Source: Alphaproteobacteria bacterium (lineage in GTDB: Bacteria; Pseudomonadota; Alphaproteobacteria; UBA828). From it: a stretch of DNA of 64,000 nucleotides. The notes below the pieces were generated by a model. That model was not told the origin of the DNA. It worked only from the letters and a program-made list of their open reading frames with translations, and searched no databases. This document shows, piece after piece, positions 2,731 through 49,402 of the stretch. Position 1 is the stretch's first letter. Each line of letters starts with the position of its first letter. Made by a program: the position numbers and the translations under genes. The stretch lies in contig CAXXVO010000007.1 in the NCBI GenBank assembly GCA_963422645.2, forward strand, positions 480,001 to 544,000. The letters are read 5' to 3'.

Positions 2731-4059
2731 GTGAACCCGCTGCGGAGATTCCTGCCGCGCGGCCTCTTCTGGCGGGCCTTCCTGATCATGTTCATTCCAC
2801 TGATCCTGGTTCAAGCGACGGTGGTCTACATCTTCTTCGAACGTCACTGGGACACGGTGAGCCACCAGCTGGCGCTGGATGTCAGTGGCGATGTCCTCTC
2901 CATCATGCGTATGGCCGATGGCGTGACGGATCCCGCAGAGCGCGCCCGGATCGACGAGATCGCCCGGCGGGAAATGCAGTTCGGTGTCGTCTTCGAGGAT
3001 GGCGCAGTACTGCCTGACGAAGCTCCGCCGCAGAGCAGTGGCATCTCTTACGAAATGCTGCACCGGCAGCTCGACCGCCGCATCGGAGCCTCCTACCATC
3101 TCGATAGCAACTTGCCCAACAAGGGGATGACAATTCGGGTCCAGCGCCCCGATGGTGTGTTGACCCTGATCACGACGACCAGGCGCACGCGGGAATCGAC
3201 TACAGTCCTGCCCTTCCTGTGGATGGCAGGGATGGCGCTATTGGTTACGACGATCGCCGTCATGTTTCTGCGTAACCAGGTTCGTCCGATCAGGCGGCTG
3301 GCAGCCGCTGCCGACGCGCTGGGCAAGGGCCGGCCAGTGACCGACCTCAAACCCGCGGGCGCGTCCGAGGTTCGTCTCGCGGGCGCCGCCTTCCTGGAGA
3401 TGCAGGGGCGGATTCAGCGCCAGATCACGCAGCGCACCGAGATGCTGGCCGGGGTCTCTCACGATCTTCGCACTCCGCTCACCCGGGTGAGGCTGCAGCT
3501 CGCCATGTTGGCCGATTCGCACCCGGACTCGCGGGCCGAGATTGGTGAATCCGAGCAGGACCTGCTGCTCATGGAACACATGATCGACGAATACATGGCC
3601 TTCGCCCGGGGTCAGGGCGCGGAGGCGCCGGTCAGCACCGACCTCGCCGAGATCATCGACGATGTCACCGCCGATGCCCGCAGCAAGGGCAGCCCGATCA
3701 CTCTTGAGCTCGAGCGACCCCTGGTCATGGCGCTCCGGCCGAACGCCATCCGCCGCTGCCTCACCAATCTGGTCGAGAACGCCGTGCATCATGGCAGACA
3801 GGTCGCGATCAGCGCCGTGCGCCGGGATGACGTCGTCTCGATCGCGGTCGAGGACGACGGGCCGGGCATTCCCGAGGACCAGCGGGAAGAGGTGTTCAAG
3901 CCCTTCTTCCGGCTCGATGACGCGCGCAACCCGCGCACCGGCGGCGCCGGCCTCGGCCTCGCGATCGCGCGCGACGTCGCCCGCGGGCATGGCGGCGAAA
4001 TCCGCATGAGCGGAGCCTCGCTCGGCGGCCTGCGCGCCGAGCTCCGACTACCGGTCTAG
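2731..4059 (+). CDS. EnvZ-like sensor histidine kinase
   Basis: Two TM segments, HAMP, H-box SHDLRTPLTR, N-box NLVENA, DDGPGI and GLGLAI. Confidence 0.92.
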   Translation: MNPLRRFLPRGLFWRAFLIMFIPLILVQATVVYIFFERHWDTVSHQLALDVSGDVLSIMRMADGVTDPAERARIDEIARREMQFGVVFEDGAVLPDEAPPQSSGISYEMLHRQLDRRIGASYHLDSNLPNKGMTIRVQRPDGVLTLITTTRRTRESTTVLPFLWMAGMALLVTTIAVMFLRNQVRPIRRLAAAADALGKGRPVTDLKPAGASEVRLAGAAFLEMQGRIQRQITQRTEMLAGVSHDLRTPLTRVRLQLAMLADSHPDSRAEIGESEQDLLLMEHMIDEYMAFARGQGAEAPVSTDLAEIIDDVTADARSKGSPITLELERPLVMALRPNAIRRCLTNLVENAVHHGRQVAISAVRRDDVVSIAVEDDGPGIPEDQREEVFKPFFRLDDARNPRTGGAGLGLAIARDVARGHGGEIRMSGASLGGLRAELRLPV

Positions 4060-4068
4060 GTTAGGAAC

Positions 4069-4713
4069 CTAACCGGCTTCTGCAGGCTGGGTGTCGCGCC
4101 ACTCGCGTCTTGGCGCGAGACGGCAGAGCGCGCGCGTCATTCGGTCGAGGCGCTTGAGCCTGCGGTCGAGCACGGCCATGGTGCGCGCCATGTCTTCGCT
4201 GTTGTCCCGGAGCCAGACCGGGAGCATGGAGAGATAAAGCGCACAGAGCGCCTTGACTCGGAGCCTGCCCTGCAGGCCCGCGCTGCTCAAATCGGCGGCT
4301 TCGAGCATCCAGCGCATCGAACGCCGCAGCGTCAGCGGGCCGCACAGGATCGCTTCGGGGTTCGACGGGCAGCTTCGCAGGATCGCGCCTACCCCATCCT
4401 TGTTGGCATTGAGAAGATCGAAGCGCTTCATGAGCACATCGAACAGACGCTCTGTGGCCGGTCGCCCCGCCATCTCGGGGTCCCGCGCGGCCAGAACCTC
4501 GCGGTCGATCGCCGCCGCATAGGCCGCGACGATAGCGTGTTTGGCCGCGAACTCTGCTCGCATCTCAGCCAGGGAGACCCCGGCCGCCTCGGCGATGTCG
4601 CCGAGCCCAACCCGCGCCCAGCCTCGGCTCGCGGCCAAAGCCAGAGCACTCTCGATGATGGTCTGGGACGCGTCCTTGCGCTTGCCGGCCCCCGCTGCAG
4701 CTTTCCTCGGCAT
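4069..4713 (-). CDS. TetR/AcrR-family regulator
   Basis: N-terminal HTH (IIESALALAASRGW..VGLGDIAEAAGVS); ERLFDVLMKRFD. Confidence 0.8.
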   Translation of the reverse strand: MPRKAAAGAGKRKDASQTIIESALALAASRGWARVGLGDIAEAAGVSLAEMRAEFAAKHAIVAAYAAAIDREVLAARDPEMAGRPATERLFDVLMKRFDLLNANKDGVGAILRSCPSNPEAILCGPLTLRRSMRWMLEAADLSSAGLQGRLRVKALCALYLSMLPVWLRDNSEDMARTMAVLDRRLKRLDRMTRALCRLAPRREWRDTQPAEAG

Positions 4714-39023: not shown

Positions 39024-40529
39024 TTACGCGCACTTGACGGTGGCGATGAGCCGATCCGATGGGCTGGTCAGGGCTTCGATGATATTCCAGCCCTGCTTTC
39101 TGGCGGTGGTGATGACGCTGCGCAGGATGGCGAAGTTCTCGGCCCCCTGCGCGGACCGGAAGCCCCCGGAGATCTTCTGGCGCAGCTTCATCATCCGAAG
39201 GTCGCGCTCGGCCTCGTTGTTCGTGAACCCGACCTCGAGGTCGATCAGGAACCGGAGCACCGCGCATTTGTGGTCGCGCAGCCTCAAGGCCGGATTGTGA
39301 CCGATCCTTCGCTTCCGGCGCTTCTTCCTCTTGCCAGGCGAGAACGGTGGTTGGCTCTCGTGAAAGGCCAGCGCATCGGCGATGATCTCGTCGTATCGGC
39401 GCTCGATCAGCGCCACAAGCCTCGCCGGAACGGCGATATCCTTGTCCAGCGCGATGCGGGCGGCGCGATTGGCTCGGCGCAGGAGCTGCTGCATCCGCCG
39501 GGCCCAAGCCTCCCCTTCGATGTCCACCAGCGCCTGCAACTCCCGCAGGTGATGGGCGTTGCACAGGCCGTGCTCCACCCCTTCCATCGCGAAGTACGGC
39601 TTCCAGTGATCGTGCACGACGATGCCGGAGACACCCGAGAGCAGGGCGCCGCGCTTGCCGCTGACCCGGTACGCCGCCAGCAGCGGCGTGCAGATCACAT
39701 GAAGCCACTGCGTCTGACCGCCGATCCGCAAGCCGGTCTCGTCCATGTGTTTCACCCGCGCCGTGCCCGCCGCCAGGTCCTGTATGTGCAAGGCCGCGTC
39801 CCGCAGCCGCTCGGCCGCCCTCTCGCTCATCGTCGCCAACGTCGCAGCCGTCACCGGCGCGCCGAAGAGCTCGGCCATCACCTGCGACAGCCGATCCTCC
39901 GGCAGGAAGTGAGCGTGCTGAAGGTAGACCGCCACCCCGGCAATGCGCGGGCCGTACTGCACCGGCGCCGACACCCCGTCGGGGAACGCCGCCCGGGTCA
40001 CCGTCCCGCAATGCCCGCAGCACTTGGCATGCGCCCGGTGCTCGGTCACCTCCAGGGGGCTCGGCTCGGGCAGATCGAACACCTGGCGGGCGACGGGCGT
40101 TCCCGCCCTGGCCGCGTCCGAAAGCGGCGAACCGCATCCCTTGCAGGAAGCCGGGACGTGATCCTTCACCCGATCCGGGTGATCGGCGCGGCGCAGCGTC
40201 TTGCCCTTGTGGCCGGGCTGGCCACCGGGCTTGCGGCCCGATTTGCCGCGCAGGCTTCGGGTTCGCCGCTTCGAATTCGGCTTCCTCAGCCCATCGCTCG
40301 AAGGCGGCTTGCCGCTGTTGCCGCTGTTGAGGCCGAGACGGCGCTCCAACTCCTCGATGCGCTCGACGAGACGCGCGACTTGCTCTTCCAGCCGCGCGTT
40401 CTGCTGCCGAAGCCAGGCATTTTCCTCCCGAAGCCGGGCGTTCTCCTCCTCCAGGCGGGCGATCTTCTGCGCGGGCGTTTCGGGCGCTGCTCCCGTCGAA
40501 GGGCCGCGCGGCGACTCGGGATTGCTCAT
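39024..40529 (-). CDS. IS66-family transposase (open frame; HNPAL where the other two read HNLA)
   Basis: NSGNSGKPPSSDG, CKGCG, HMDETG, CNAHHLREL, FTNNEAERDLRM. Confidence 0.92.
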   Translation of the reverse strand: MSNPESPRGPSTGAAPETPAQKIARLEEENARLREENAWLRQQNARLEEQVARLVERIEELERRLGLNSGNSGKPPSSDGLRKPNSKRRTRSLRGKSGRKPGGQPGHKGKTLRRADHPDRVKDHVPASCKGCGSPLSDAARAGTPVARQVFDLPEPSPLEVTEHRAHAKCCGHCGTVTRAAFPDGVSAPVQYGPRIAGVAVYLQHAHFLPEDRLSQVMAELFGAPVTAATLATMSERAAERLRDAALHIQDLAAGTARVKHMDETGLRIGGQTQWLHVICTPLLAAYRVSGKRGALLSGVSGIVVHDHWKPYFAMEGVEHGLCNAHHLRELQALVDIEGEAWARRMQQLLRRANRAARIALDKDIAVPARLVALIERRYDEIIADALAFHESQPPFSPGKRKKRRKRRIGHNPALRLRDHKCAVLRFLIDLEVGFTNNEAERDLRMMKLRQKISGGFRSAQGAENFAILRSVITTARKQGWNIIEALTSPSDRLIATVKCA

Positions 40530-40651: not shown

Positions 40652-42540
40652 GTAACTGCCCAGGTTCTTGCTGTGAAAATTCTCTGGGATTCGGCACAAC
40701 GCTACCCACGCGACGCCCGTGTGCTCCTCTGGGGTCGCCGGGTTTCACAGCTCACGATGCCCCTCTTGCGGACTGCGACCGGTAAGCTACCCCGATGTGG
40801 CCCGAAGTCCGCCCGCGCGACGGGCACCGATTTTCATTCTATGGGGTGGTCCAGCACGGCGTCGACCATGATCGTTTATGAGAATGGCTCCGCTGTTGGA
40901 GAACCCGTGCCAGGTGAGCTTACGCGCACTTGACGGTGGCGATGAGCCGATCCGATGGGCTGGTCAGGGCTTCGATGATATTCCAGCCCTGCTTTCTGGC
41001 GGTGGTGATGACGCTGCGCAGGATGGCGAAGTTCTCGGCCCCCTGCGCGGACCGGAAGCCCCCGGAGATCTTCTGGCGCAGCTTCATCATCCGAAGGTCG
41101 CGCTCGGCCTCGTTGTTCGTGAACCCGACCTCGAGGTCGATCAGGAACCGGAGCACCGCGCATTTGTGGTCGCGCAGCCTCAAGGCCAGATTGTGACCGA
41201 TCCTTCGCTTCCGGCGCTTCTTCCTCTTGCCAGGCGAGAACGGTGGTTGGCTCTCGTGAAAGGCCAGCGCATCGGCGATGATCTCGTCGTATCGGCGCTC
41301 GATCAGCGCCACAAGCCTCGCCGGAACGGCGATATCCTTGTCCAGCGCGATGCGGGCGGCGCGATTGGCTCGGCGCAGGAGCTGCTGCATCCGCCGGGCC
41401 CAAGCCTCCCCTTCGATGTCCACCAGCGCCTGCAACTCCCGCAGGTGATGGGCGTTGCACAGGCCGTGCTCCACCCCTTCCATCGCGAAGTACGGCTTCC
41501 AGTGATCGTGCACGACGATGCCGGAGACACCCGAGAGCAGGGCGCCGCGCTTGCCGCTGACCCGGTACGCCGCCAGCAGCGGCGTGCAGATCACATGAAG
41601 CCACTGCGTCTGACCGCCGATCCGCAAGCCGGTCTCGTCCATGTGTTTCACCCGCGCCGTGCCCGCCGCCAGGTCCTGTATGTGCAAGGCCGCGTCCCGC
41701 AAGCCGCTCGGCCGCCCTCTCGCTCATCGTCGCCAACGTCGCAGCCGTCACCGGCGCGCCGAAGAGCTCGGCCATCACCTGCGACAGCCGATCCTCCGGC
41801 AGGAAGTGAGCGTGCTGAAGGTAGACCGCCACCCCGGCAATGCGCGGGCCGTACTGCACCGGCGCCGACACCCCGTCGGGGAACGCCGCCCGGGTCACCG
41901 TCCCGCAATGCCCGCAGCACTTGGCATGCGCCCGGTGCTCGGTCACCTCCAGGGGGCTCGGCTCGGGCAGATCGAACACCTGGCGGGCGACGGGCGTTCC
42001 CGCCCTGGCCGCGTCCGAAAGCGGCGAACCGCATCCCTTGCAGGAAGCCGGGACGTGATCCTTCACCCGATCCGGGTGATCGGCGCGGCGCAGCGTCTTG
42101 CCCTTGTGGCCGGGCTGGCCACCGGGCTTGCGGCCCGATTTGCCGCGCAGGCTTCGGGTTCGCCGCTTCGAATTCGGCTTCCTCAGCCCATCGCTCGAAG
42201 GCGGCTTGCCGCTGTTGCCGCTGTTGAGGCCGAGACGGCGCTCCAACTCCTCGATGCGCTCGACGAGACGCGCGACTTGCTCTTCCAGCCGCGCGTTCTG
42301 CTGCCGAAGCCAGGCATTTTCCTCCCGAAGCCGGGCGTTCTCCTCCTCCAGGCGGGCGATCTTCTGCGCGGGCGTTTCGGGCGCTGCTCCCGTCGAAGGG
42401 CCGCGCGGCGACTCGGGATTGCTCATGTCGTTGTTGAGTCATTTCCCGAAATTCCCGTCAAGCCCTTTCCACCAACTCCGAACGAGAAACGCCTCAATCC
42501 ACTGGCCCAAAATGACAAATCAGACGACCTGGGCAGTTAC
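40652..42540 (-). mobile_element. IS66-family element, copy 2 of the tandem dimer
   Basis: Same ends as copy 1; separated from it by CATTTAAG (40644-40651); right flank GGATTTTT (42541-42548). Confidence 0.92.
40920..42426 (-). pseudogene. IS66-family transposase, frameshifted
   Basis: One extra A at 41701-41702 (CCGCAAGCCG versus CCGCAGCCG in copy 1) splits the ORF; could be a sequencing error. Confidence 0.85.
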
Positions 42541-43083: not shown

Positions 43084-43413
43084 GTGAGACTCGCGAAGCA
43101 GCGCGGCATCCACTGCACGCCGGAGAAGTGGGAGCGGATCCGGCGGCGCGCCCGGAAGAACAACGAGACGATCTCGCGCTTCGGCGAGCTCTGCTGCCGG
43201 CGCGCGGCGGAAGCGTTGGGCGCGCCACCGTCAGTGCCGCCGGGCCATCCGCTGGCGCTGCCCGAGGACGACCAGCGGCGCCTGCTGGCGCACAGTCTTG
43301 CGGTGCAGCGCAGGACACGTGTTTCGATCCGGGCGCCGGGGGGAGAGCGCGTCGACCTGCCGCTCGACGCGGTGATCCGCTTCCTGCTGCTGTGCGAGGA
43401 GGAGGGCAATTGA
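43084..43413 (+). CDS. Putative ribbon-helix-helix protein 2
   Basis: KQRGIHCTPEKWERIRRRARKNNETISRFGELCC. Confidence 0.55.
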   Translation: MRLAKQRGIHCTPEKWERIRRRARKNNETISRFGELCCRRAAEALGAPPSVPPGHPLALPEDDQRRLLAHSLAVQRRTRVSIRAPGGERVDLPLDAVIRFLLLCEEEGN

Positions 43414-43862
43414 GCAAGCCGAGAAAGAAGCCGCCCGCGCGCAAGGAGTCGCGCGGGAGGACGTACACGATCTCGTGCACCGACGAGCAGTGGGCGGCGA
43501 TTCAGGACGGAGCGGAGCGGGCCGGCAAGAATGTCTCGACGTGGTTCGTCGAGTGCGCGCTGACCGTGGACCCATGGCCCAGGAAGCACCGCCGGCTGGT
43601 GCTGAACGAGAGGGAGCAGCGCCGCCACGCGCGGGCGGTGGCGGTGAGCGCCCGGAACCTCGGCGCGGACGAGGCGGACGGAGCCGGCGATGTTGGGGCC
43701 GAACTCAGGGCGCTCATGGCCGCGCGGCTGCGCGGGATGGACCGGCGCGGCCGGCGCGAGAACGCGCTGGCGCTGCTGCGCCGGGCGTTCGGCGACGATG
43801 CGGCGCAAACCGTCACCGCGGCGTTCATACCGGACGCGCTGTTGAGCGGCGTGGAAAAGTGA
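43410..43862 (+). CDS. Putative ribbon-helix-helix protein 3, 3' end replaced by the IS21 left end
   Basis: TTG start overlapping the previous TGA, after GGAGGAGG; RTYTISCTDEQWAAIQDGAERAGKNVSTWFVECAL; last residues LSGVEK* are IS21-derived. Confidence 0.6.
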   Translation: MSKPRKKPPARKESRGRTYTISCTDEQWAAIQDGAERAGKNVSTWFVECALTVDPWPRKHRRLVLNEREQRRHARAVAVSARNLGADEADGAGDVGAELRALMAARLRGMDRRGRRENALALLRRAFGDDAAQTVTAAFIPDALLSGVEK

Positions 43863-44025
43863 CCCCCTATTGGAGATGCCGTAATGGGGCTTGGCGCCGG
43901 CGTGCAGCGTCTCGGCCTGTCGCGATGACGGCGAATCGGTTGTCGTTGCCCTTACACGCGTAGCGTGTTCACGGGGTCTTGCCGCAAGGCGCGCCCCAAT
44001 TCCTCTGGAGGAAAGGGCAACGACA

Positions 44026-45066
44026 ATGGACGTCTGTATCGGGCTGGATGTATCGCTGGCAAGCACGGCGGTTTGCGTTCTCGACGAGAAGGGCAAGATC
44101 GCGACCGAGGCGCAGGTCGCCAGCACGCCTGAAGCGCTGGTTGGGTTCCTGCACAAGCTGCCGCACGAGATCACCGCGATCGGTCTCGAGGCCGGTCCCT
44201 TGTCCCACTGGTTGCACAAGGGAATGACCGACGCCGGCTTCGAGGCCGTGTTGATGGAGACCCGGCAGGTAAAGGGTGCGCTGAAGGCCATGCCGATCAA
44301 GACCGATCGCCGGGACGCCGAGGGCATCGCACGGCTGTTGCTGATGGGGTGGTTTCGGCCGGTGCACTGCAAGTCGGTGTCATCGCAAGAGATGCGAGCC
44401 CTCCTGACCTCGCGCAAGTCCGTGCTGGACGCGATCATCCGCCTGGAGGTCTCGCTGCGCGGCGTCCTGCGTAACTTTGGCCTGAAGCTGGGCCTGATCT
44501 CGAAGGGCCGCTATGAGGCCCGAGTGCGGGAGTTGGTCGCCGGCAACGCGATGCTGGAAGCGGCAGCCGAACCGATCCTGGGCGCGCGGGCGGCCCTGCG
44601 CCGCGAGTTCGCCGAGCTGGAGAAGCTGGTCCGCACTCTGGCAAGGCAAGACAGGGCATGCCGCCTGTTGATGACCATGCCGGGCGTGGGGCATGTCATA
44701 GCCCTGACCTTCAAGTCCGCGATCGACGACCCGGAGCGGTTCCGAAGATCGAAGGATGTCGGCCCCTGGGTAGGGCTGACGCCGGCGCGGGAGCAGTCCG
44801 GGGAGAGGGATATTGTCGGCCGGATCACCAAGGCCGGCGATGCCGGTCTGCGCGCGGCTCTTTACCAAGCCGCAACGGTGATGCTGAACCGCACAGGGCC
44901 GAACTGGCTGAAGGCTTGGGCGCTACGTTTGGCGAAGCACAGGGGCAAGAAGCGCGCGACCGTTGCCTTGGCCCGGCGCATCGGTGTTGTGCTTCACCGA
45001 ATGTGGCGGGATGGAACCGAGTTCCGCTTTACGCGCGAGGAAGCGATGGCGCTTCGGACGGCATAG
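44026..45066 (+). CDS. IS110-family DEDD recombinase/transposase
   Basis: GLDVS, GLEAG, KTDRRDA (DEDD); MPGVG; GLTPAREQSG with the catalytic serine; ALARR. Confidence 0.95.
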   Translation: MDVCIGLDVSLASTAVCVLDEKGKIATEAQVASTPEALVGFLHKLPHEITAIGLEAGPLSHWLHKGMTDAGFEAVLMETRQVKGALKAMPIKTDRRDAEGIARLLLMGWFRPVHCKSVSSQEMRALLTSRKSVLDAIIRLEVSLRGVLRNFGLKLGLISKGRYEARVRELVAGNAMLEAAAEPILGARAALRREFAELEKLVRTLARQDRACRLLMTMPGVGHVIALTFKSAIDDPERFRRSKDVGPWVGLTPAREQSGERDIVGRITKAGDAGLRAALYQAATVMLNRTGPNWLKAWALRLAKHRGKKRATVALARRIGVVLHRMWRDGTEFRFTREEAMALRTA

Positions 45067-45480
45067 GCGCGGCTGCATCCCATCGGCAGTCAGCGAGGAG
45101 AGGAGGAAAGAGCCGCGCCTGAAGGTGGGCGAGCCACCAACGTCCCCTCGCCGGGACGCGGTCCCCGATGATGCACGTGGGCCCACTTGTTTGCCGAACC
45201 GGCCTGTCGTGTTCGAGCACGCTGTGGAGATAGGCACTCGGGAACCGATTTGGACTGGGCATGATGTTGGCAGCCGATGCGCTGACCACGGACAGAAGCG
45301 AGAACCCGGCGAAGGACACAAGACGTTGAGCAAGCGCGAGATCGATACGGTCGGCCCCATTGCACCTGACACCGGCAACCTCCTCCGCGCCTCACCCGGC
45401 GCCTCATAGCCAGGCCGAAGGAGCCCCTACACCACGCCAGGAAAACAACTGATTGGCGCGACAATGATCTATTGAAAATC
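45067..45480 (+). ncRNA. Putative bridge/seek RNA region of IS110 copy 1
   Basis: Target guides GGGCCCACT (45179-45187) and TGGAG (45225-45229); donor guides GGCAT (45258-45262) and ACAGAAG (45292-45298); each pair lies in an internal loop. Transcript limits unknown. Confidence 0.8.
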
Positions 45481-45534
45481 GAGCTTGACGGGAAACGCCC
45501 CATTACAGAAGTGGGCCCCTGGGGTCGGACAGTT

Positions 45535-46329
45535 TCATGCGGCGGTTTTGACCGGGGTGCGGGGTTGTTTCTCCTCGAAGCGGTTGGGGCTCAGGTATCC
45601 GAGGGCGGAGTGTAGGCGTCTCTCGTTGTAGCTGTCGATGAAGCGGGGCAGGTGCTCCGCCACGTCTTCCGCGCTCTCGAGGGCCATGGGATAGACGCCC
45701 TCGACCTTCAGGGTCTTCATGAAGCTTTCCATCATGGCGTTGTCGTAGGGGTTGCCGCGCCGGCCCATCGAGCCGACCAGGCCGTGTTCGTCGAGCAGGG
45801 CCCGGTAGGCCTGGGCGGCGTATTGCGAGCCCCTGTCGGAGTGGTGGATGCAGCCGGGTGGCGGGTTGCGGCCCTCGATCGCCGTCGCCAGCGCCGCAAG
45901 GGTTAGCCGGGCATCGATCCGCCGGCCGAGGGCGTAGCCCACGATGCGCCGCGACCACGCATCCATGATCGCCGCCAGATAGACGAAGCCGCCCAGGATC
46001 GCGATGTAGGTCAGATCGGCGACCCAGAGCTGGTTCGGACCATCGACATCGCGCTCCCTGGAGCGGTCCGGGAAGACGGGCTCGTCGTGGTCGCTGTCGG
46101 TGGTGGCGACGAAGCGGCGCCGGCAGGGCGGATGCAGCGCGTGCTCGCGCATCAGGCGCTTGATCTTCTTGTGGTTCACCACCCAGCCGCGATGCCTCAG
46201 CGCCGCCTGCATGCGCCGCCAGCCGTAGGCTTCGAACTCATCCTTGATCGCGTGCATGGCCTCCACCAGCGCGGTGTCGTCTGCCGAGCCCTTGGGCTTG
46301 TCGTAGTAAGTAGAATGCGCGATCCCCAT
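45535..46329 (-). CDS. IS3-family transposase OrfB (DDE integrase core)
   Basis: YGWRRM, WVADLTY, HHSDRGSQY, YDNAMMESF, YNERRLHSALGY. Confidence 0.93.
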   Translation of the reverse strand: MGIAHSTYYDKPKGSADDTALVEAMHAIKDEFEAYGWRRMQAALRHRGWVVNHKKIKRLMREHALHPPCRRRFVATTDSDHDEPVFPDRSRERDVDGPNQLWVADLTYIAILGGFVYLAAIMDAWSRRIVGYALGRRIDARLTLAALATAIEGRNPPPGCIHHSDRGSQYAAQAYRALLDEHGLVGSMGRRGNPYDNAMMESFMKTLKVEGVYPMALESAEDVAEHLPRFIDSYNERRLHSALGYLSPNRFEEKQPRTPVKTAA

Positions 46330-46688
46330 CAGTCGGCATCCTTCGGCGACGGAGAGGCCTTGGGGCCGGTGATGACGGACATGGGCGCGTTTCTCGGCCG
46401 GCGTCCTTGCCGCTGAGCCCCCTTTAGAAACTCGAGCTCCAGGGCCTGCTTGCCGACCAGGCGCTCGAGCGCCGCGATCCGGGCCTCGTATTCCTGGATC
46501 GTGTCGGCCGCCTCGGCGTCCTCGTCGAAGGCGCCGGCCTCGTACTTGTCCACCCAGATCCGGATCAGGGTGCGGGAGAGCTCGTGCCGACGGGCCAGGC
46601 CGTGCAGCGTCTCGCCGGCGAGATACTCCTGAACGACCTGGCGCTTGAACGCGATGCCGTGGGTGCGGTGGGTTCGGTGCTTTGCCAT
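46329..46688 (-). CDS. IS3-family OrfA (HTH plus leucine zipper)
   Basis: FKRQVVQEY..LARRHELSRTLIRIW; LERLVGKQALELEFLKGA; candidate -1 slippery site AAAGGGG near 46419-46425. Confidence 0.9.
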   Translation of the reverse strand: MAKHRTHRTHGIAFKRQVVQEYLAGETLHGLARRHELSRTLIRIWVDKYEAGAFDEDAEAADTIQEYEARIAALERLVGKQALELEFLKGAQRQGRRPRNAPMSVITGPKASPSPKDAD

Positions 46689-46792
46689 GGGCGTCGATCC
46701 TTCGAATGCCCGGTGCACCGGTCAAATAAATTCAAGCCACCTGTCCGGCCCCAGGGGCCCACTTCTGTAATGGGGCGTTTCCCGTCAAGCTC

Positions 46793-47206
46793 GATTTTCA
46801 ATAGATCATTGTCGCGCCAATCAGTTGTTTTCCTGGCGTGGTGTAGGGGCTCCTTCGGCCTGGCTATGAGGCGCCGGGTGAGGCGCGGAGGAGGTTGCCG
46901 GTGTCAGGTGCAATGGGGCCGACCGTATCGATCTCGCGCTTGCTCAACGTCTTGTGTCCTTCGCCGGGTTCTCGCTTCTGTCCGTGGTCAGCGCATCGGC
47001 TGCCAACATCATGCCCAGTCCAAATCGGTTCCCGAGTGCCTATCTCCACAGCGTGCTCGAACACGACAGGCCGGTTCGGCAAACAAGTGGGCCCACGTGC
47101 ATCATCGGGGACCGCGTCCCGGCGAGGGGACGTTGGTGGCTCGCCCACCTTCAGGCGCGGCTCTTTCCTCCTCTCCTCGCTGACTGCCGATGGGATGCAG
47201 CCGCGC
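46793..47206 (-). ncRNA. Putative bridge/seek RNA region of IS110 copy 2
   Basis: Mirror of copy 1; target guide at 47086-47094. Confidence 0.8.
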
Positions 47207-48247
47207 CTATGCCGTCCGAAGCGCCATCGCTTCCTCGCGCGTAAAGCGGAACTCGGTTCCATCCCGCCACATTCGGTGAAGCACAACACCGATGCGCCGG
47301 GCCAAGGCAACGGTCGCGCGCTTCTTGCCCCTGTGCTTCGCCAAACGTAGCGCCCAAGCCTTCAGCCAGTTCGGCCCTGTGCGGTTCAGCATCACCGTTG
47401 CGGCTTGGTAAAGAGCCGCGCGCAGACCGGCATCGCCGGCCTTGGTGATCCGGCCGACAATATCCCTCTCCCCGGACTGCTCCCGCGCCGGCGTCAGCCC
47501 TACCCAGGGGCCGACATCCTTCGATCTTCGGAACCGCTCCGGGTCGTCGATCGCGGACTTGAAGGTCAGGGCTATGACATGCCCCACGCCCGGCATGGTC
47601 ATCAACAGGCGGCATGCCCTGTCTTGCCTTGCCAGAGTGCGGACCAGCTTCTCCAGCTCGGCGAACTCGCGGCGCAGGGCCGCCCGCGCGCCCAGGATCG
47701 GTTCGGCTGCCGCTTCCAGCATCGCGTTGCCGGCGACCAACTCCCGCACTCGGGCCTCATAGCGGCCCTTCGAGATCAGGCCCAGCTTCAGGCCAAAGTT
47801 ACGCAGGACGCCGCGCAGCGAGACCTCCAGGCGGATGATCGCGTCCAGCACGGACTTGCGCGAGGTCAGGAGGGCTCGCATCTCTTGCGATGACACCGAC
47901 TTGCAGTGCACCGGCCGAAACCACCCCATCAGCAACAGCCGTGCGATGCCCTCGGCGTCCCGGCGATCGGTCTTGATCGGCATGGCCTTCAGCGCACCCT
48001 TTACCTGCCGGGTCTCCATCAACACGGCCTCGAAGCCGGCGTCGGTCATTCCCTTGTGCAACCAGTGGGACAAGGGACCGGCCTCGAGACCGATCGCGGT
48101 GATCTCGTGCGGCAGCTTGTGCAGGAACCCAACCAGCGCTTCAGGCGTGCTGGCGACCTGCGCCTCGGTCGCGATCTTGCCCTTCTCGTCGAGAACGCAA
48201 ACCGCCGTGCTTGCCAGCGATACATCCAGCCCGATACAGACGTCCAT
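47207..48247 (-). CDS. IS110-family DEDD recombinase/transposase
   Basis: Protein identical to 44026-45066. Confidence 0.95.
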   Translation of the reverse strand: MDVCIGLDVSLASTAVCVLDEKGKIATEAQVASTPEALVGFLHKLPHEITAIGLEAGPLSHWLHKGMTDAGFEAVLMETRQVKGALKAMPIKTDRRDAEGIARLLLMGWFRPVHCKSVSSQEMRALLTSRKSVLDAIIRLEVSLRGVLRNFGLKLGLISKGRYEARVRELVAGNAMLEAAAEPILGARAALRREFAELEKLVRTLARQDRACRLLMTMPGVGHVIALTFKSAIDDPERFRRSKDVGPWVGLTPAREQSGERDIVGRITKAGDAGLRAALYQAATVMLNRTGPNWLKAWALRLAKHRGKKRATVALARRIGVVLHRMWRDGTEFRFTREEAMALRTA

Positions 48248-48493
48248 TGTCGTTGCCCTTTCCTCCAGAGGAATTGGGGCGCGCCTTGCGGCAAGACCCC
48301 GTGAACACGCTACGCGTGTAAGGGCAACGACAACCGATTCGCCGTCATCGCGACAGGCCGAGACGCTGCACGCCGGCGCCAAGCCCCATTACGGCATCTC
48401 CATATTGGGGGTGATCGGCGTCCAAAATTGCCCCCCCCTGGATTTGTGTCCATGAACACACCTCGTCGTTTGGACGGACGAGGTGGGGGGGAG

Positions 48494-49402
48494 ATGCTGG
48501 TTGTGGAAACGATCGCGAAGATCCGTCGGGATCGTCTGGTGAAGGGCGTTCCGATCAAGAAGCTCGCCCGGGATTTGAGGGTTTCCAAGAACACGATACG
48601 CAAGGTGGTTCGGGGCGATGCGACCTCGCACAGCTACGCGCGCAAGATCCAGCCGATGCCGAAGCTTGGGCCGTGGGTCGACGAGCTCGAGCGCCAGCTG
48701 GAGGCCAACGAGAAGAAGAAGCGCCGGGATCGCCTGTCCCTGCTGCAGATCCATGAGGACCTTGGCGAGCTGGGCTACAAGGGCGGCTATGATGCGGTCC
48801 GGCGCTACGCCAAGGCGTGGCGGCGCCGGCGCCGTCTGTTATCGCCGTCGCAGGCCTATGTGCCGCTGATCTTCGACCCTGGCGAGGCCTACCAGTTCGA
48901 CTGGAGCCATGAGTACGCGCGTCTGGCGGGTGCGACGACCAAGGTGAAGGCGGCGCACATGCGGCTCTGCCACAGCCGGATGTATCTGGTCCAGATCTTT
49001 CCCCGCGAGAGCCAGGAGATGGTGTTCGAGGCACATGAACGTGCCTTCCGCCTCTTCGGCGGGGTCTGCCGGCGGGGCATCTACGACAACATGAAGACGG
49101 CGGTGAACACGATCTTCGTCGGCAAGAAGCGGGACTACAACCGCCGCTTCCAGGAGATGTGTTCGCACCATCTGATCGAGCCTGTGGCGTGCACGCCAGG
49201 GGCGAGCTGGGAGAAGGGGCAGGTTGAGAAGCAGGTGGGAGACCTTCGTGGGCGTCTGTTCGCGCGCAGCCCGCGGGGCCGCTCCTACGCCGAGATCAAC
49301 GAGTGGCTGATGGATCGGTGCATAGAGGAGGCCAAGAAGCAGCCGCATCCGACGATCCCGGGCAAAACGGCGCGAAGATGGAAACAAAAAGGAGTGGAGT
49401 GA
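48494..49402 (+). pseudogene. istA: IS21-family transposase IstA, C-terminally truncated
   Basis: MLVVETIAKIRR HTH, PGEAYQFDWS, IYDNMKTAV, WEKGQVE; the sequence turns non-IstA-like after HPTIPGKT (about 49370). Confidence 0.85.

What the first reader, a model, noticed from the sequence alone, without database searches (positions are those of the whole stretch)
45120..45320. Readable bridge/seek RNA whose guides match the IS3 end (target) and the element's own circle junction (donor)
Seen: after two small hairpins (GGTGG/CCACC, CGTCCC/GGGACG), a stem GTCCCCGA/TCGGGAAC encloses an internal loop. One side is GGGCCCACT (45179-45187), the exact reverse complement of target AGTGGGCCC; the other is TGGAG (45225-45229), the target left arm. 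The match stops at the IS3 tip, where the two flanks differ (CTAT versus AATA). A second loop carries GGCAT (45258-45262, reverse complement of left end ATGCC) and ACAGAAG (45292-45298, identical to the right end). Established: IS110 recombinases use bispecific ncRNAs, encoded 3' of the ORF in the IS1111 group. Inference: a natural guide/target/donor set with two observed insertion events, hence a candidate reprogrammable recombinase. The short 5-nt matches are individually weak; their joint arrangement is the evidence.
Basis: partly seen in the sequence, partly recalled or inferred. Interest (0 to 1): 0.9.

Follow-up and report, generated by a model that had tools for sequence, protein, structure and literature searches.

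The report
Guide RNA of an IS1111-type element

Summary
Taken alone they are weak. A 9-nt target match arises in 281 of 5000 shuffles of the non-coding region, and a 7-nt donor match in 2177 of 5000. Comparison settles the question. The element (43876-45511, with an identical inverted copy at 46762-48397) is an IS1111-type insertion sequence. It sits 5 bp inside both terminal repeats of a 1260-bp IS3-family element, and the same genome holds empty TGGAG|TGGGCCCC sites. Across 54 elements from 52 public loci plus two from this genome, the scaffold at 45141-45309 is conserved and the variable blocks fall at the proposed guides. In 30 guide families each element's guides match its own flanks: mean longest match 6.4 and 5.6 nt, against 3.4 and 3.1 for other elements' flanks; 0 of 20000 permutations reach this. 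The 3' donor guide equals the last 7 nt of the right end in 62 of 66 elements, across four sequence states. Three helices are 96-99% paired with compensatory changes, and G·U outnumbers A·C 77 to 6, which points to a plus-strand RNA. No RNA was observed directly. Verdict: a real bispecific guide RNA, and a new member of a known kind.

The parts
43876..45511 (+). IS1111-type insertion sequence, copy 1 (1636 bp). The ends are ambiguous by the shared AG core and could equally be written 43874-45509.
   Evidence: 100% identical inverted copy; six 100% copies in the genome; ends fixed by flanks and empty sites
46762..48397 (-). IS1111-type insertion sequence, copy 2, identical and inverted. Its guide-RNA region mirrors to about 46964-47132.
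44026..45066 (+). DEDD/RuvC-type recombinase gene, 346 aa, with GLTPAREQSG
   Evidence: Pfam PF01548 and PF02371; NCBIfam NF033542 'IS110 family RNA-guided transposase', 241 bits against a cutoff of 140; translation
43881..43890 (+). left subterminal inverted repeat GTAATGGGGC, preceded by the extension ATGCC (AGATGCC if the core is counted)
45497..45506 (+). right subterminal inverted repeat GCCCCATTAC, followed by AGAAG (AGA plus the AG core)
45141..45158 (+). conserved 5' hairpin CGTCCC/GGGACG
   Evidence: five of its six pairs are 35-37 of 37 paired but nearly invariant, so there is no covariation to judge by; the sixth (outer) pair forms in 14 of 37 (helix 2)
45160..45246 (+). target-binding module (87 nt): basal stem 45160-45174 with 45234-45246, an internal loop carrying both target guides, and inner hairpin 45189-45222
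   Evidence: helix 3 is 99.2% paired with 4 pairs changed on both sides; helix 4 is 96.1% paired with 5 such pairs
45179..45187 (+). 5' target guide GGGCCCACT, complementary to the top strand of core plus right target (AG TGGGCCC)
   Evidence: most variable block of the alignment; own mean match 6.43 against 3.37 for other elements' flanks, 0 of 20000 permutations
45225..45229 (+). 3' target guide TGGAG, identical to left target plus core and so complementary to the bottom strand. It is followed by a conserved AT (45230-45231) that equals the first two bases of the left end.
   Evidence: own mean match 5.57 against 3.10, 0 of 20000 permutations; AGAT conservation seen
45255..45309 (+). donor-binding module: inner hairpin 45268-45288, flanked by the two donor guides. 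The candidate basal stem 45255-45259 with 45305-45309 is uncertain.
   Evidence: helix 6 is 99.6% paired, with one pair AU to GC in 12 sequences; my full candidate stem closing the module (helix 5: this basal stem plus the ATGATG/CATCAT extension) is only 69.1% paired, while four of the five basal pairs themselves form in most sequences
45258..45262 (+). 5' donor guide GGCAT, complementary to the left end ATGCC
   Evidence: 56 of 62 scored elements are fully complementary. ATGCT goes with AGCAT in 3 elements and ATACC with AGTAT in 3.
45292..45298 (+). 3' donor guide ACAGAAG, identical to the last 7 nt of the right end
   Evidence: 62 of 66 elements identical across four states: ACGGAAG, ACCGAAG, ACAGAAG, ATGGAAG. 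The in-genome variant B changes A to G at both places.
45485..45490 (+). TTGACG, a candidate -35 of a promoter completed only in the circle, 17 nt before GAAG|AT across the right-left joint
   Evidence: TTGA[CA] in 53 of 54 elements; spacer 17-18 nt in 46 of 54. That it is a promoter is an inference.
45512..46761 (-). body of the IS3-family element. Its outermost 5 bp are split off at 43871-43875 (TGGAG) and 48398-48402 (CTCCA). Its 3-bp target duplication TAT lies at 43868-43870 and 48403-48405.
   Evidence: rve and HTH_21 domains; intact 1260-bp copy with ends TGGAGTGGGCCCC on contig C5

Best explanation
Window 45141-45309, inside the 445-nt 3' non-coding region of an IS1111-type insertion sequence, most likely encodes a bispecific guide RNA. 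Hall and Ataide's group call this a seekRNA; Durrant and colleagues call it a bridge RNA. It would be transcribed in the same sense as the recombinase gene.

Module 1 (45160-45246) is a stem enclosing an internal loop. The 5' side of the loop pairs with the top strand of AG+TGGGCCC, which is the core plus the right target. The 3' side pairs with the bottom strand of TGG+AG, the left target plus core. Module 2 (about 45255-45309) carries GGCAU, which pairs with the element's left end ATGCC, and ACAGAAG, which pairs with the bottom strand of the right end. Together these two guides read the circle junction ACAGAAG|ATGCC.

The 346-aa DEDD recombinase would use this RNA to bring the circular element and the target together and exchange strands at the shared AG. 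The programmed target is the terminal inverted repeat of an IS3-family element, 5 bp from its tip. Both ends of one IS3 copy are therefore occupied, in opposite orientations.

What is shown here: the guide-flank and guide-end covariation, the conserved helices, and the plus-strand signature. What is inferred from the family: that the molecule is RNA, that it binds the recombinase, that it is transcribed from a junction promoter, and the chemistry of strand exchange.
For: Family: Pfam PF01548 and PF02371 and NCBIfam NF033542. The subterminal repeats are GTAATGGGGC/GCCCCATTAC, and the non-coding stretch is about 150 nt on the 5' side and 445 nt on the 3' side.

Target: 4 of 4 full copies and 6 of 6 left ends carry the same flanks in the same orientation. 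Three empty IS3 ends read TGGAG|TGGGCCCC.

In-genome natural experiment: a variant that is 85% identical differs from the reference at 42 of 204 aligned positions. Fourteen of these fall in the 31 nt of guide blocks. Its new guides match its own flanks by 8 and 7 nt. Its right end and its donor guide both read ACGGAAG.

Family-wide test: in 30 guide families, the mean longest own match is 6.43 against 3.37 (sd 0.84) for the 5' guide and 5.57 against 3.10 (sd 0.93) for the 3' guide. None of 20000 permutations reaches either sum. Wrong-sense controls give 3.43 and 2.83.

Donor guides: the 3' guide equals the right end in 62 of 66 elements across four states. The 5' guide is fully complementary to the left end in 56 of 62 scored elements, with changes at matching positions in two clades.

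Structure: helices 3, 4 and 6 are 99.2%, 96.1% and 99.6% paired, with 11 pairs changed on both sides. Sliding the 3' partners by 1-3 columns drops pairing from 87.5% to 29-37%. G·U cells number 77 against 6 A·C cells. Forcing the consensus pairs costs only 2.6 kcal/mol relative to the minimum-energy fold.

Sizes: the modules are 87 nt alone and about 150 nt together. These fit the short and long seekRNAs of ISEc11, ISKpn4 and ISPst6, listed as 82-86 and 148-154 nt in a table of PMC13604230.
Against: No transcript of this element was seen. The RNA-library contigs that could be laid belong to relatives only 85-95% alike, and contigs cannot show RNA ends. Rfam 15 gives no match. Thermodynamic folding of the single sequence is no better than shuffles. 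No sigma-70-like promoter or terminator is found inside the integrated copy.

Six of 30 family representatives show only a background 3-nt match for the 5' guide, and 3 of 30 for the 3' guide. Examples are the right flanks of L012 and L030. Variant B's 5' guide fits its flank only if one base is offset from the core.

The base of the donor module is poorly supported: helix 5 is 69% paired. Donor-guide exceptions are L043/L044, L020 and L065 for the 3' guide, and L015, L017 and L042 for the 5' guide. Some of the covariation cells come from related sequences and are not independent events.
Confidence: 0.9

Rival explanations
1. Only the first module is an RNA guide, corresponding to the short seekRNA. 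The matches of 45258-45262 and 45292-45298 to the element's ends would then reflect a DNA-level feature, such as protein-recognised pseudo-ends or an internal half-site, and not a donor-binding RNA loop.
For: For ISEc11 the short 82-nt seekRNA alone sufficed for transposition, and the authors state that the role of the long RNA is not established (PMC11187229, sections 10 and 14). The basal stem of module 2 is weakly supported. The DNA copy of ACAGAAG does behave as a recombination site in one relative (L038).
Against: A 7-nt identity kept through four sequence states in 62 of 66 elements, together with changes at the matching positions of the 5' guide and the left end in two clades. The inner hairpin between the two guides is conserved with compensatory changes and G·U pairs. 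Durrant et al. describe donor-complementary loops in IS1111-group bridge RNAs.
Confidence: 0.07
2. The guides act as single-stranded DNA and not as RNA, as the subterminal DNA guides of IS200/IS605 elements do.
For: Covariation between guide and target does not by itself distinguish RNA from DNA. G·T wobbles are also possible in DNA.
Against: The recombinase belongs to the family for which RNA co-purification and RNA-dependent recombination have been shown (PMC11187229 section 8; PMC11208160). It is a DEDD enzyme; as I recall, and no call shows it, IS200/IS605 elements use a different, HUH-type enzyme. The guides lie more than 200 nt from either end, not beside the cleavage sites.
Confidence: 0.02
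3. The matches are chance similarities in a G+C-rich non-coding region.
For: Within the window alone the donor 7-mer and both 5-mers are at chance level, and the 9-mer is only marginal at 281 of 5000.
Against: 0 of 20000 permutations across 30 guide families, plus the donor covariation.
Confidence: 0.01

Closest known systems
seekRNAs of IS1111-family elements ISEc11, ISKpn4/ISPst6 and ISPa11 (Siddiquee et al. 2024, PMC11187229)
   Same: A DEDD recombinase of about 340 aa; subterminal inverted repeats with 7-nt and 3-nt extensions; a long non-coding region 3' of the gene; the top-strand complement lying 5' of the bottom-strand match; target matches that overlap at the insertion point; one insertion orientation; and related elements naturally retargeted by changes in the guide blocks only.
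   Different: The target differs: here it is the terminal repeat of an IS3-family element. The RNA here is predicted, not isolated. That paper assigns no role to the long RNA. Here the part downstream of the target module covaries with the element's own ends.
Bridge RNA of IS621 and other IS110-group elements (Durrant et al. 2024, PMC11208160; Hiraizumi et al. 2024, PMC11208158)
   Same: Two modules, each a stem, an internal loop with two guides and an inner hairpin, reading both strands of the target and of the circle junction around a shared core dinucleotide. The promoter is completed only in the circle.
   Different: The RNA lies in the right end, not the left. The order of guides is reversed: the right-target guide comes first. 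The core is AG, not CT. The subterminal repeats are long. The recombinase matches IS621 only over its C-terminal half (E 5e-12).
[quoted passage not shown]
   Same: An IS1111-type element whose specific target is the terminal inverted repeat of another mobile element, so that it can occupy both ends in opposite orientations.
   Different: The host element here is an IS3-family insertion sequence, not a Tn21-family transposon, and the target sequence is different. I did not read that paper.

Membership tests
IS1111 group of the IS110 family | DEDD (RuvC-like) recombinase with the C-terminal PF02371 domain, 330-350 aa | tested here: met
   PF01548 (E 1.5e-16) and PF02371 (E 7.4e-24); NF033542 at 241 bits against a cutoff of 140; 346 aa
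IS1111 group of the IS110 family | GL-P----S(t)G motif in the C-terminal domain (PMC11187229, section 6) | tested here: met
   GLTPAREQSG is present in the translation
IS1111 group of the IS110 family | Subterminal inverted repeats: usually 11-13 bp according to PMC11187229, 7-17 bp according to PMC11208160 | tested here: met
   10-bp perfect repeat GTAATGGGGC/GCCCCATTAC. This is inside Durrant's range and one base short of Siddiquee's usual range.
IS1111 group of the IS110 family | Asymmetric terminal extensions of 7 bp on the left and 3 bp on the right | tested here: met
   With the shared AG counted on the left, the extensions are AGATGCC (7) and AGA (3)
IS1111 group of the IS110 family | The longer non-coding region lies downstream of the recombinase gene | tested here: met
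   150 nt upstream (43876-44025) against 445 nt downstream (45067-45511)
IS1111 group of the IS110 family | Site- and orientation-specific insertion without target duplication | tested here: met
   6 of 6 left junctions and 4 of 4 right junctions are the same, in one orientation relative to the target. Joining the flanks gives the empty site exactly, apart from the shared AG.
seekRNA / bridge RNA | [quoted passage not shown] | tested here: met
   GGGCCCACT comes before TGGAG and they overlap at AG. Covariation with the flanks holds in 30 guide families.
seekRNA / bridge RNA | A second loop with guides for the element's own ends (the donor) | tested here: met
   62 of 66 for the 3' guide and 56 of 62 for the 5' guide. 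The loop's basal stem is inconclusive.
seekRNA / bridge RNA | Conserved secondary structure supported by compensatory changes | tested here: met
   Helices 3, 4 and 6
seekRNA / bridge RNA | The RNA is made and co-purifies with the recombinase | not testable with these tools
   Only contigs of relatives from RNA libraries could be laid
seekRNA / bridge RNA | Changing the guides changes the specificity | not testable with these tools
   Natural retargeting is seen, but no experiment was possible
Rfam families | A match to a curated covariance model | tested here: not met
   Two sub-threshold chance matches only, neither inside 45141-45309 (one in the recombinase gene, one on the opposite strand). 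Nothing reached the threshold of any of the 4227 families searched.

The most novel reading that the evidence does not exclude
In this IS1111 clade the 'long seekRNA', whose role the seekRNA paper left open, would be a full bispecific bridge RNA. Its second half reads the element's own ends beside the long subterminal repeats. The DNA that encodes the guides would itself be a half-site for the recombinase, producing elements with duplicated right ends. In addition, an RNA-guided IS is here programmed against the end repeats of another IS. It splits 5 bp off each tip, which could disable the host IS, a form of conflict between mobile elements.
Probability: 0.45. Interest if true: 0.5.

Novelty: new member of a known kind. 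Interest (0 to 1): 0.35.

Why it matters
It is a clean natural example of RNA-guided recombination. The set is complete: guides, occupied sites, empty sites and donor ends all lie in one genome. An 85%-identical sister element in the same genome is retargeted by changes concentrated in the guide blocks, and about 30 retargeted relatives exist elsewhere. This gives a ready comparative map of which positions are programmable in an IS1111-type scaffold, where experiments so far have concentrated on the target module. It also adds an IS3-family end repeat to the list of mobile-element ends targeted by IS1111-type elements. It does not reveal a new mechanism.

Tried and rejected
Single-sequence folding of the whole non-coding region (z +0.49) and of 45141-45312 (z +0.28) gave no signal and did not reproduce the conserved helices. 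The palindromic guide GTGGGCCCAC and the high G+C content mislead the minimum-energy fold.

The Rfam scan gave only two sub-threshold chance matches. The promoter and terminator scan of 43800-45600 found none.

Expression: the run search listed two RNA libraries holding 0.10 and 0.05 of the sampled words, and five unlabelled runs holding 0.95-0.98. Four runs were laid (X1, X2, X8, X9). They gave only contigs that are 85-95% alike, that is, from relatives, and X9 gave none. Several contigs stop resembling the window near 45318-45320. That is where relatives diverge in sequence; it is not evidence for an RNA end. I draw no conclusion on expression, habitat or absence from this.

My candidate stem closing the donor module (helix 5) is only 69% paired. 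An ATGATG/CATCAT extension of it holds only in some clades. I leave the base of that module open. RNAalifold also proposed a long-range CCG/CGG pairing (columns 33-35 with 197-199). It is invariant, conflicts with the first small hairpin, and is mismatched in the window's own sequence, so it is not adopted. The first small hairpin GGTGG/CCACC is 71% paired in a gappy part of the alignment, which is plausible but not firm.

The conserved AT after the 3' target guide could be a 'handshake'-type guide. The left end always begins with AT, so no covariation test is possible.

A plasmid search found only distant 'IS110 family transposase' annotations at 60-80% identity and no named IS. I could not consult ISfinder.

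Rows dropped: of the 80 loci, 15 gave no family-type ends with my script (L013, L014, L022, L029, L034, L039, L041, L048, L051, L052, L053, L071, L079, L080, L089). Twelve had flanks shorter than 12 nt and were used only for the donor counts. One (L044) duplicated L043. For the permutation test one representative per guide family was used, 30 of 54 elements. The family clustering was crude (a shared 6-mer) and lumped some unrelated guides. The right flanks of L036 and L038 are in fact duplicated element sequence; neither was a representative.

Full report
THE OBSERVATION. The window holds two 100% identical, inverted copies of a 1636-bp element, at 43876-45511 (+) and 46762-48397 (-). Each copy is bounded on the left by TGGAG and on the right by TGGGCCCC. 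Judged in this window alone, the matches are weak. In 5000 dinucleotide shuffles of the non-coding region, a match of 9 nt or more to the 24-nt target occurs 281 times, and a match of 7 nt or more to the donor junction 2177 times. Folding the single sequence does not help (z +0.49; z +0.28). Rfam has no matching family.

WHAT THE ELEMENT IS. The 346-aa ORF (44026-45066) carries the DEDD_Tnp_IS110 and Transposase_20 domains. It scores 241 bits against NCBIfam NF033542, 'IS110 family RNA-guided transposase', whose cutoff is 140. It contains GLTPAREQSG, the GL-P----S(t)G motif that Siddiquee et al. give for IS1111 transposases (PMC11187229, section 6).

The ends carry a perfect 10-bp subterminal inverted repeat, GTAATGGGGC/GCCCCATTAC. 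The dinucleotide AG is present both before the left end and at the right end. If AG is counted on the left, the terminal extensions are 7 and 3 nt, which is the IS1111 rule (section 4 of the same paper). The long non-coding region is downstream: 445 nt against 150 nt upstream. All sequence-level defining features of the IS1111 group are therefore met.

THE TARGET. The own genome holds six 100% copies, two of them truncated at the 3' end. All six left junctions read ...TGGAG|ATGCC. All four right junctions read ACAGAAG|TGGGCCCC. The motif TGGGCCCCTGGGG occurs 7 times. Four occurrences are preceded by the element. Three are preceded directly by TGGAG; these are empty sites at both ends of an intact 1260-bp IS3-family copy on C5 and at one end on C7. 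The 12-mer TGGAGTGGGCCC has one further empty occurrence, outside an IS3 end, on C6.

The target is therefore the terminal inverted repeat of an IS3-family element (rve and HTH_21 domains), 5 bp from its tip. In the window both repeats of one IS3 copy are occupied, which explains the inverted pair. The IS3 copy has its own 3-bp duplication, TAT.

The same genome holds a sister element, variant B, in three copies that are 85% identical over positions 1-1445, that is, up to window 45320. In the 204 aligned positions of 45113-45316 it differs from the reference at 42 places. Fourteen of these lie in the 31 nt of the four proposed guide blocks. Its blocks read TTTGAACC(C)T and GATCAG. Its flanks are ...GATCAG| and |GTTCAAATG, giving matches of 8 and 7 nt. 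The 5' guide fits only with a one-base offset from the core. Its right end reads ACGGAAG instead of ACAGAAG, and so does its donor guide.

A scan of one genome per prokaryote species found 189 relatives, of which the best 80 were kept (65-87% amino-acid identity). For 65 of these my script found family-type ends. Of those, 53 had at least 12 nt of flank on both sides, and 52 were non-redundant. Adding the window's element and variant B gives 54 elements. All have AG before a left end of ATGCC, ATGCT or ATACC, and a right end of the form NGAAG.

The region aligned to 45141-45309 is a conserved scaffold. Its highest-entropy columns fall at 45178-45186, at 45223-45227, in the loop of the inner hairpin, and at the single column 45294. 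I grouped the 54 elements into 30 guide families and took one representative of each. The longest exact match of the reverse-complemented 5' block to AG plus the element's own right flank averages 6.43 nt, against 3.37 (sd 0.84) for other elements' flanks. The 3' block against the own left flank averages 5.57 nt, against 3.10 (sd 0.93). None of 20000 permutations reached either observed sum (193 against a maximum of 131; 167 against a maximum of 120). The wrong-sense controls sit at background, 3.43 and 2.83.

Results against my reading: 6 of 30 representatives have only a 3-nt match for the 5' guide, and 3 of 30 for the 3' guide. The guides of some elements fit only one flank, for example L012 (4 and 3 nt) and L030 (3 and 3 nt). 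Such copies may sit in half-matching sites or next to later rearrangements.

DONOR GUIDES. Among 67 elements with both ends, the 7 nt at the position of 45292-45298 equal the last 7 nt of the right end in 62 of the 66 that could be scored. The states are ACGGAAG (39), ACCGAAG (11), ACAGAAG (10) and ATGGAAG (2). Four elements differ by one base (L043, L044, L020, L065), and one has a deletion (L086).

The 5 nt at 45258-45262 are the full complement of the left end in 56 of 62 scored elements. This includes a clade with ATGCT and AGCAT (3 elements). A clade with ATACC has AGTAT (3 elements), which is complementary at 4 of 5 positions including the changed one. Three elements are discordant. Two of them, L015 and L017, are compatible with wobble pairing; the third is L042. 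Five were not scored by my pattern but read GGCAT in the alignment. The window's element is an A-state member nested among G-state close relatives, so its A at both places is a paired change.

STRUCTURE AND STRAND. RNAalifold on 37 sequences and an explicit pair count support three helices. The second is an inner hairpin between the two target guides: 96.1% paired, 5 such pairs. The third is an inner hairpin between the two donor guides: 99.6% paired, with one pair AU to GC in 12 sequences.

The whole structure pairs in 87.5% of cells, against 29-37% when the partners are slid by 1-3 columns. None of 500 shuffles reaches it on four of the five measures. These controls do not remove relatedness. 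The 5' hairpin CGTCCC/GGGACG is almost invariant, so it cannot be judged. The candidate stem closing the donor module is weak at 69%.

In the three good helices G·U cells outnumber A·C cells 77 to 6, with 789 Watson-Crick cells and 16 others. This means the fold is specific to the plus strand, the sense of the recombinase gene. Forcing the consensus pairs on the window's sequence costs 2.6 kcal/mol (-60.9 against -63.5).

HOW IT MOST LIKELY WORKS. The following is by analogy with the family and is inference. The element excises as a circle. The joint ACAGAAG|ATGCC places a conserved TTGAC-type -35 box 17-18 nt before GAAG|AT. The box is present in 53 of 54 elements and the spacing holds in 46 of 54. 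That would drive transcription of the recombinase gene and the downstream RNA. No promoter is detectable within the integrated copy.

The RNA binds the recombinase. Module 1 pairs with both strands of the IS3 end around AG, and module 2 pairs with both strands of the circle junction around AG. Strands are then exchanged at AG. The guide order, with the top-strand complement first, is the one reported for IS1111-type seekRNAs and the reverse of IS621 (PMC11187229, section 9; PMC11208158, passages). The module sizes, 87 nt and about 150 nt, agree with the short and long RNAs measured for ISEc11, ISKpn4 and ISPst6 (table in PMC13604230).

COMPARISON WITH WHAT IS KNOWN. Durrant et al. predicted bridge RNAs in the right end of 93.0% of IS1111-group elements in ISfinder. 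They described target-, donor- and core-complementary loops for three of them (PMC11208160, passages). Siddiquee et al. showed seekRNA co-purification, necessity and reprogramming for four IS1111 members. They left the role of the long RNA open (sections 8, 10 and 14). An IS1111-type element targeting the end repeats of another mobile element has a precedent in IS4321/IS5075. I know this only from the title in reference lists.

This finding is thus a correct identification of a new member of a known kind. What it adds is modest: clear covariation evidence for the donor module in an IS1111 clade, a large natural series of retargeted relatives, and a new class of target. I did not search the literature specifically for IS1111-type elements in IS3 ends, so I make no claim that this is unpublished. 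My two literature searches concerned seekRNA, bridge RNA and IS1111.

LIMITS. No RNA was observed. Supplements were closed and ISfinder was not available. The counts of covarying cells include related sequences, so the number of independent events is smaller than the number of cells.

Noticed in passing
L038:about 3926-4096 and L036:about 3925-4114 (right ends at locus offsets 3921/4081 and 3920/4099): Two relatives carry a tandem duplication of their last 160 nt (L038) or 179 nt (L036), so each has two right ends. In L038 the duplicated segment starts directly after the internal ACAGAAG, which is the DNA copy of the 3' donor guide. In L036 it starts directly after an internal CAAAG that resembles its left target. 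Both look like recombination at half-matching sites inside the element.
   Followed up: partly
G000:C8:627091-630310 (own genome, outside the window; loci L008, L009): Variant B occurs as a tandem pair. A full copy is followed directly by a second copy that lacks its first 55 nt. The outer flanks (..GGAGTTCAG and GTTCCTCGACC..) together make one plausible target.
   Followed up: partly
G000:C3:192710-194339 and G000:C8:417733-419356 (own genome): Two 100% identical copies are truncated 6 and 12 nt before the right end. The C3 copy is joined to ..AATAGGGGGTCACTTTTCCAC, the reverse complement of the window's left flank. This looks like a deletion across a structure like the window's (IS copy, IS3, inverted IS copy) at a short CCA homology.
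   Followed up: no
window 43840-43870 and 48403-48460; G000:C5:89480-89523 and 90784-90830: The IS3-family copies themselves sit in similar sequences..TGACCCCC(N)AT on one side and (N)ATCGGCG..CAAAATTG..CCCCCC on the other. The window's right side continues into an rve-domain gene (48428-49402; only the rve domain is shown). By recall its N-terminal sequence looks like IstA of IS21-type elements; this was not tested. The IS3 element may itself prefer the end repeats of a third mobile element, giving a three-level nest.
   Followed up: no
window 45230-45231: The 3' target guide is followed by AT in nearly all of the 37 aligned elements (AGAT). AT is also the first two bases of the left end. This is reminiscent of the 'handshake guides' of IS621, but it is invariant and so untestable by covariation.
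   Followed up: partly
window 43128-43862: An ORF with a weak NikA-like (mobilisation protein) match at 23.8 bits, below Pfam's cutoff of 27, ends at the left flank. The region may be plasmid- or island-derived.
   Followed up: no
window 40000-40299 and 41897-42196: A 300-nt direct repeat at 100% identity, spaced 1897 nt apart, lies upstream of the finding.
   Followed up: no
G000:C6:185901 (minus strand): One unoccupied perfect 12-nt target, TGGAGTGGGCCC, lies outside any IS3 end. Perfect guide matches are therefore not always occupied.
   Followed up: no
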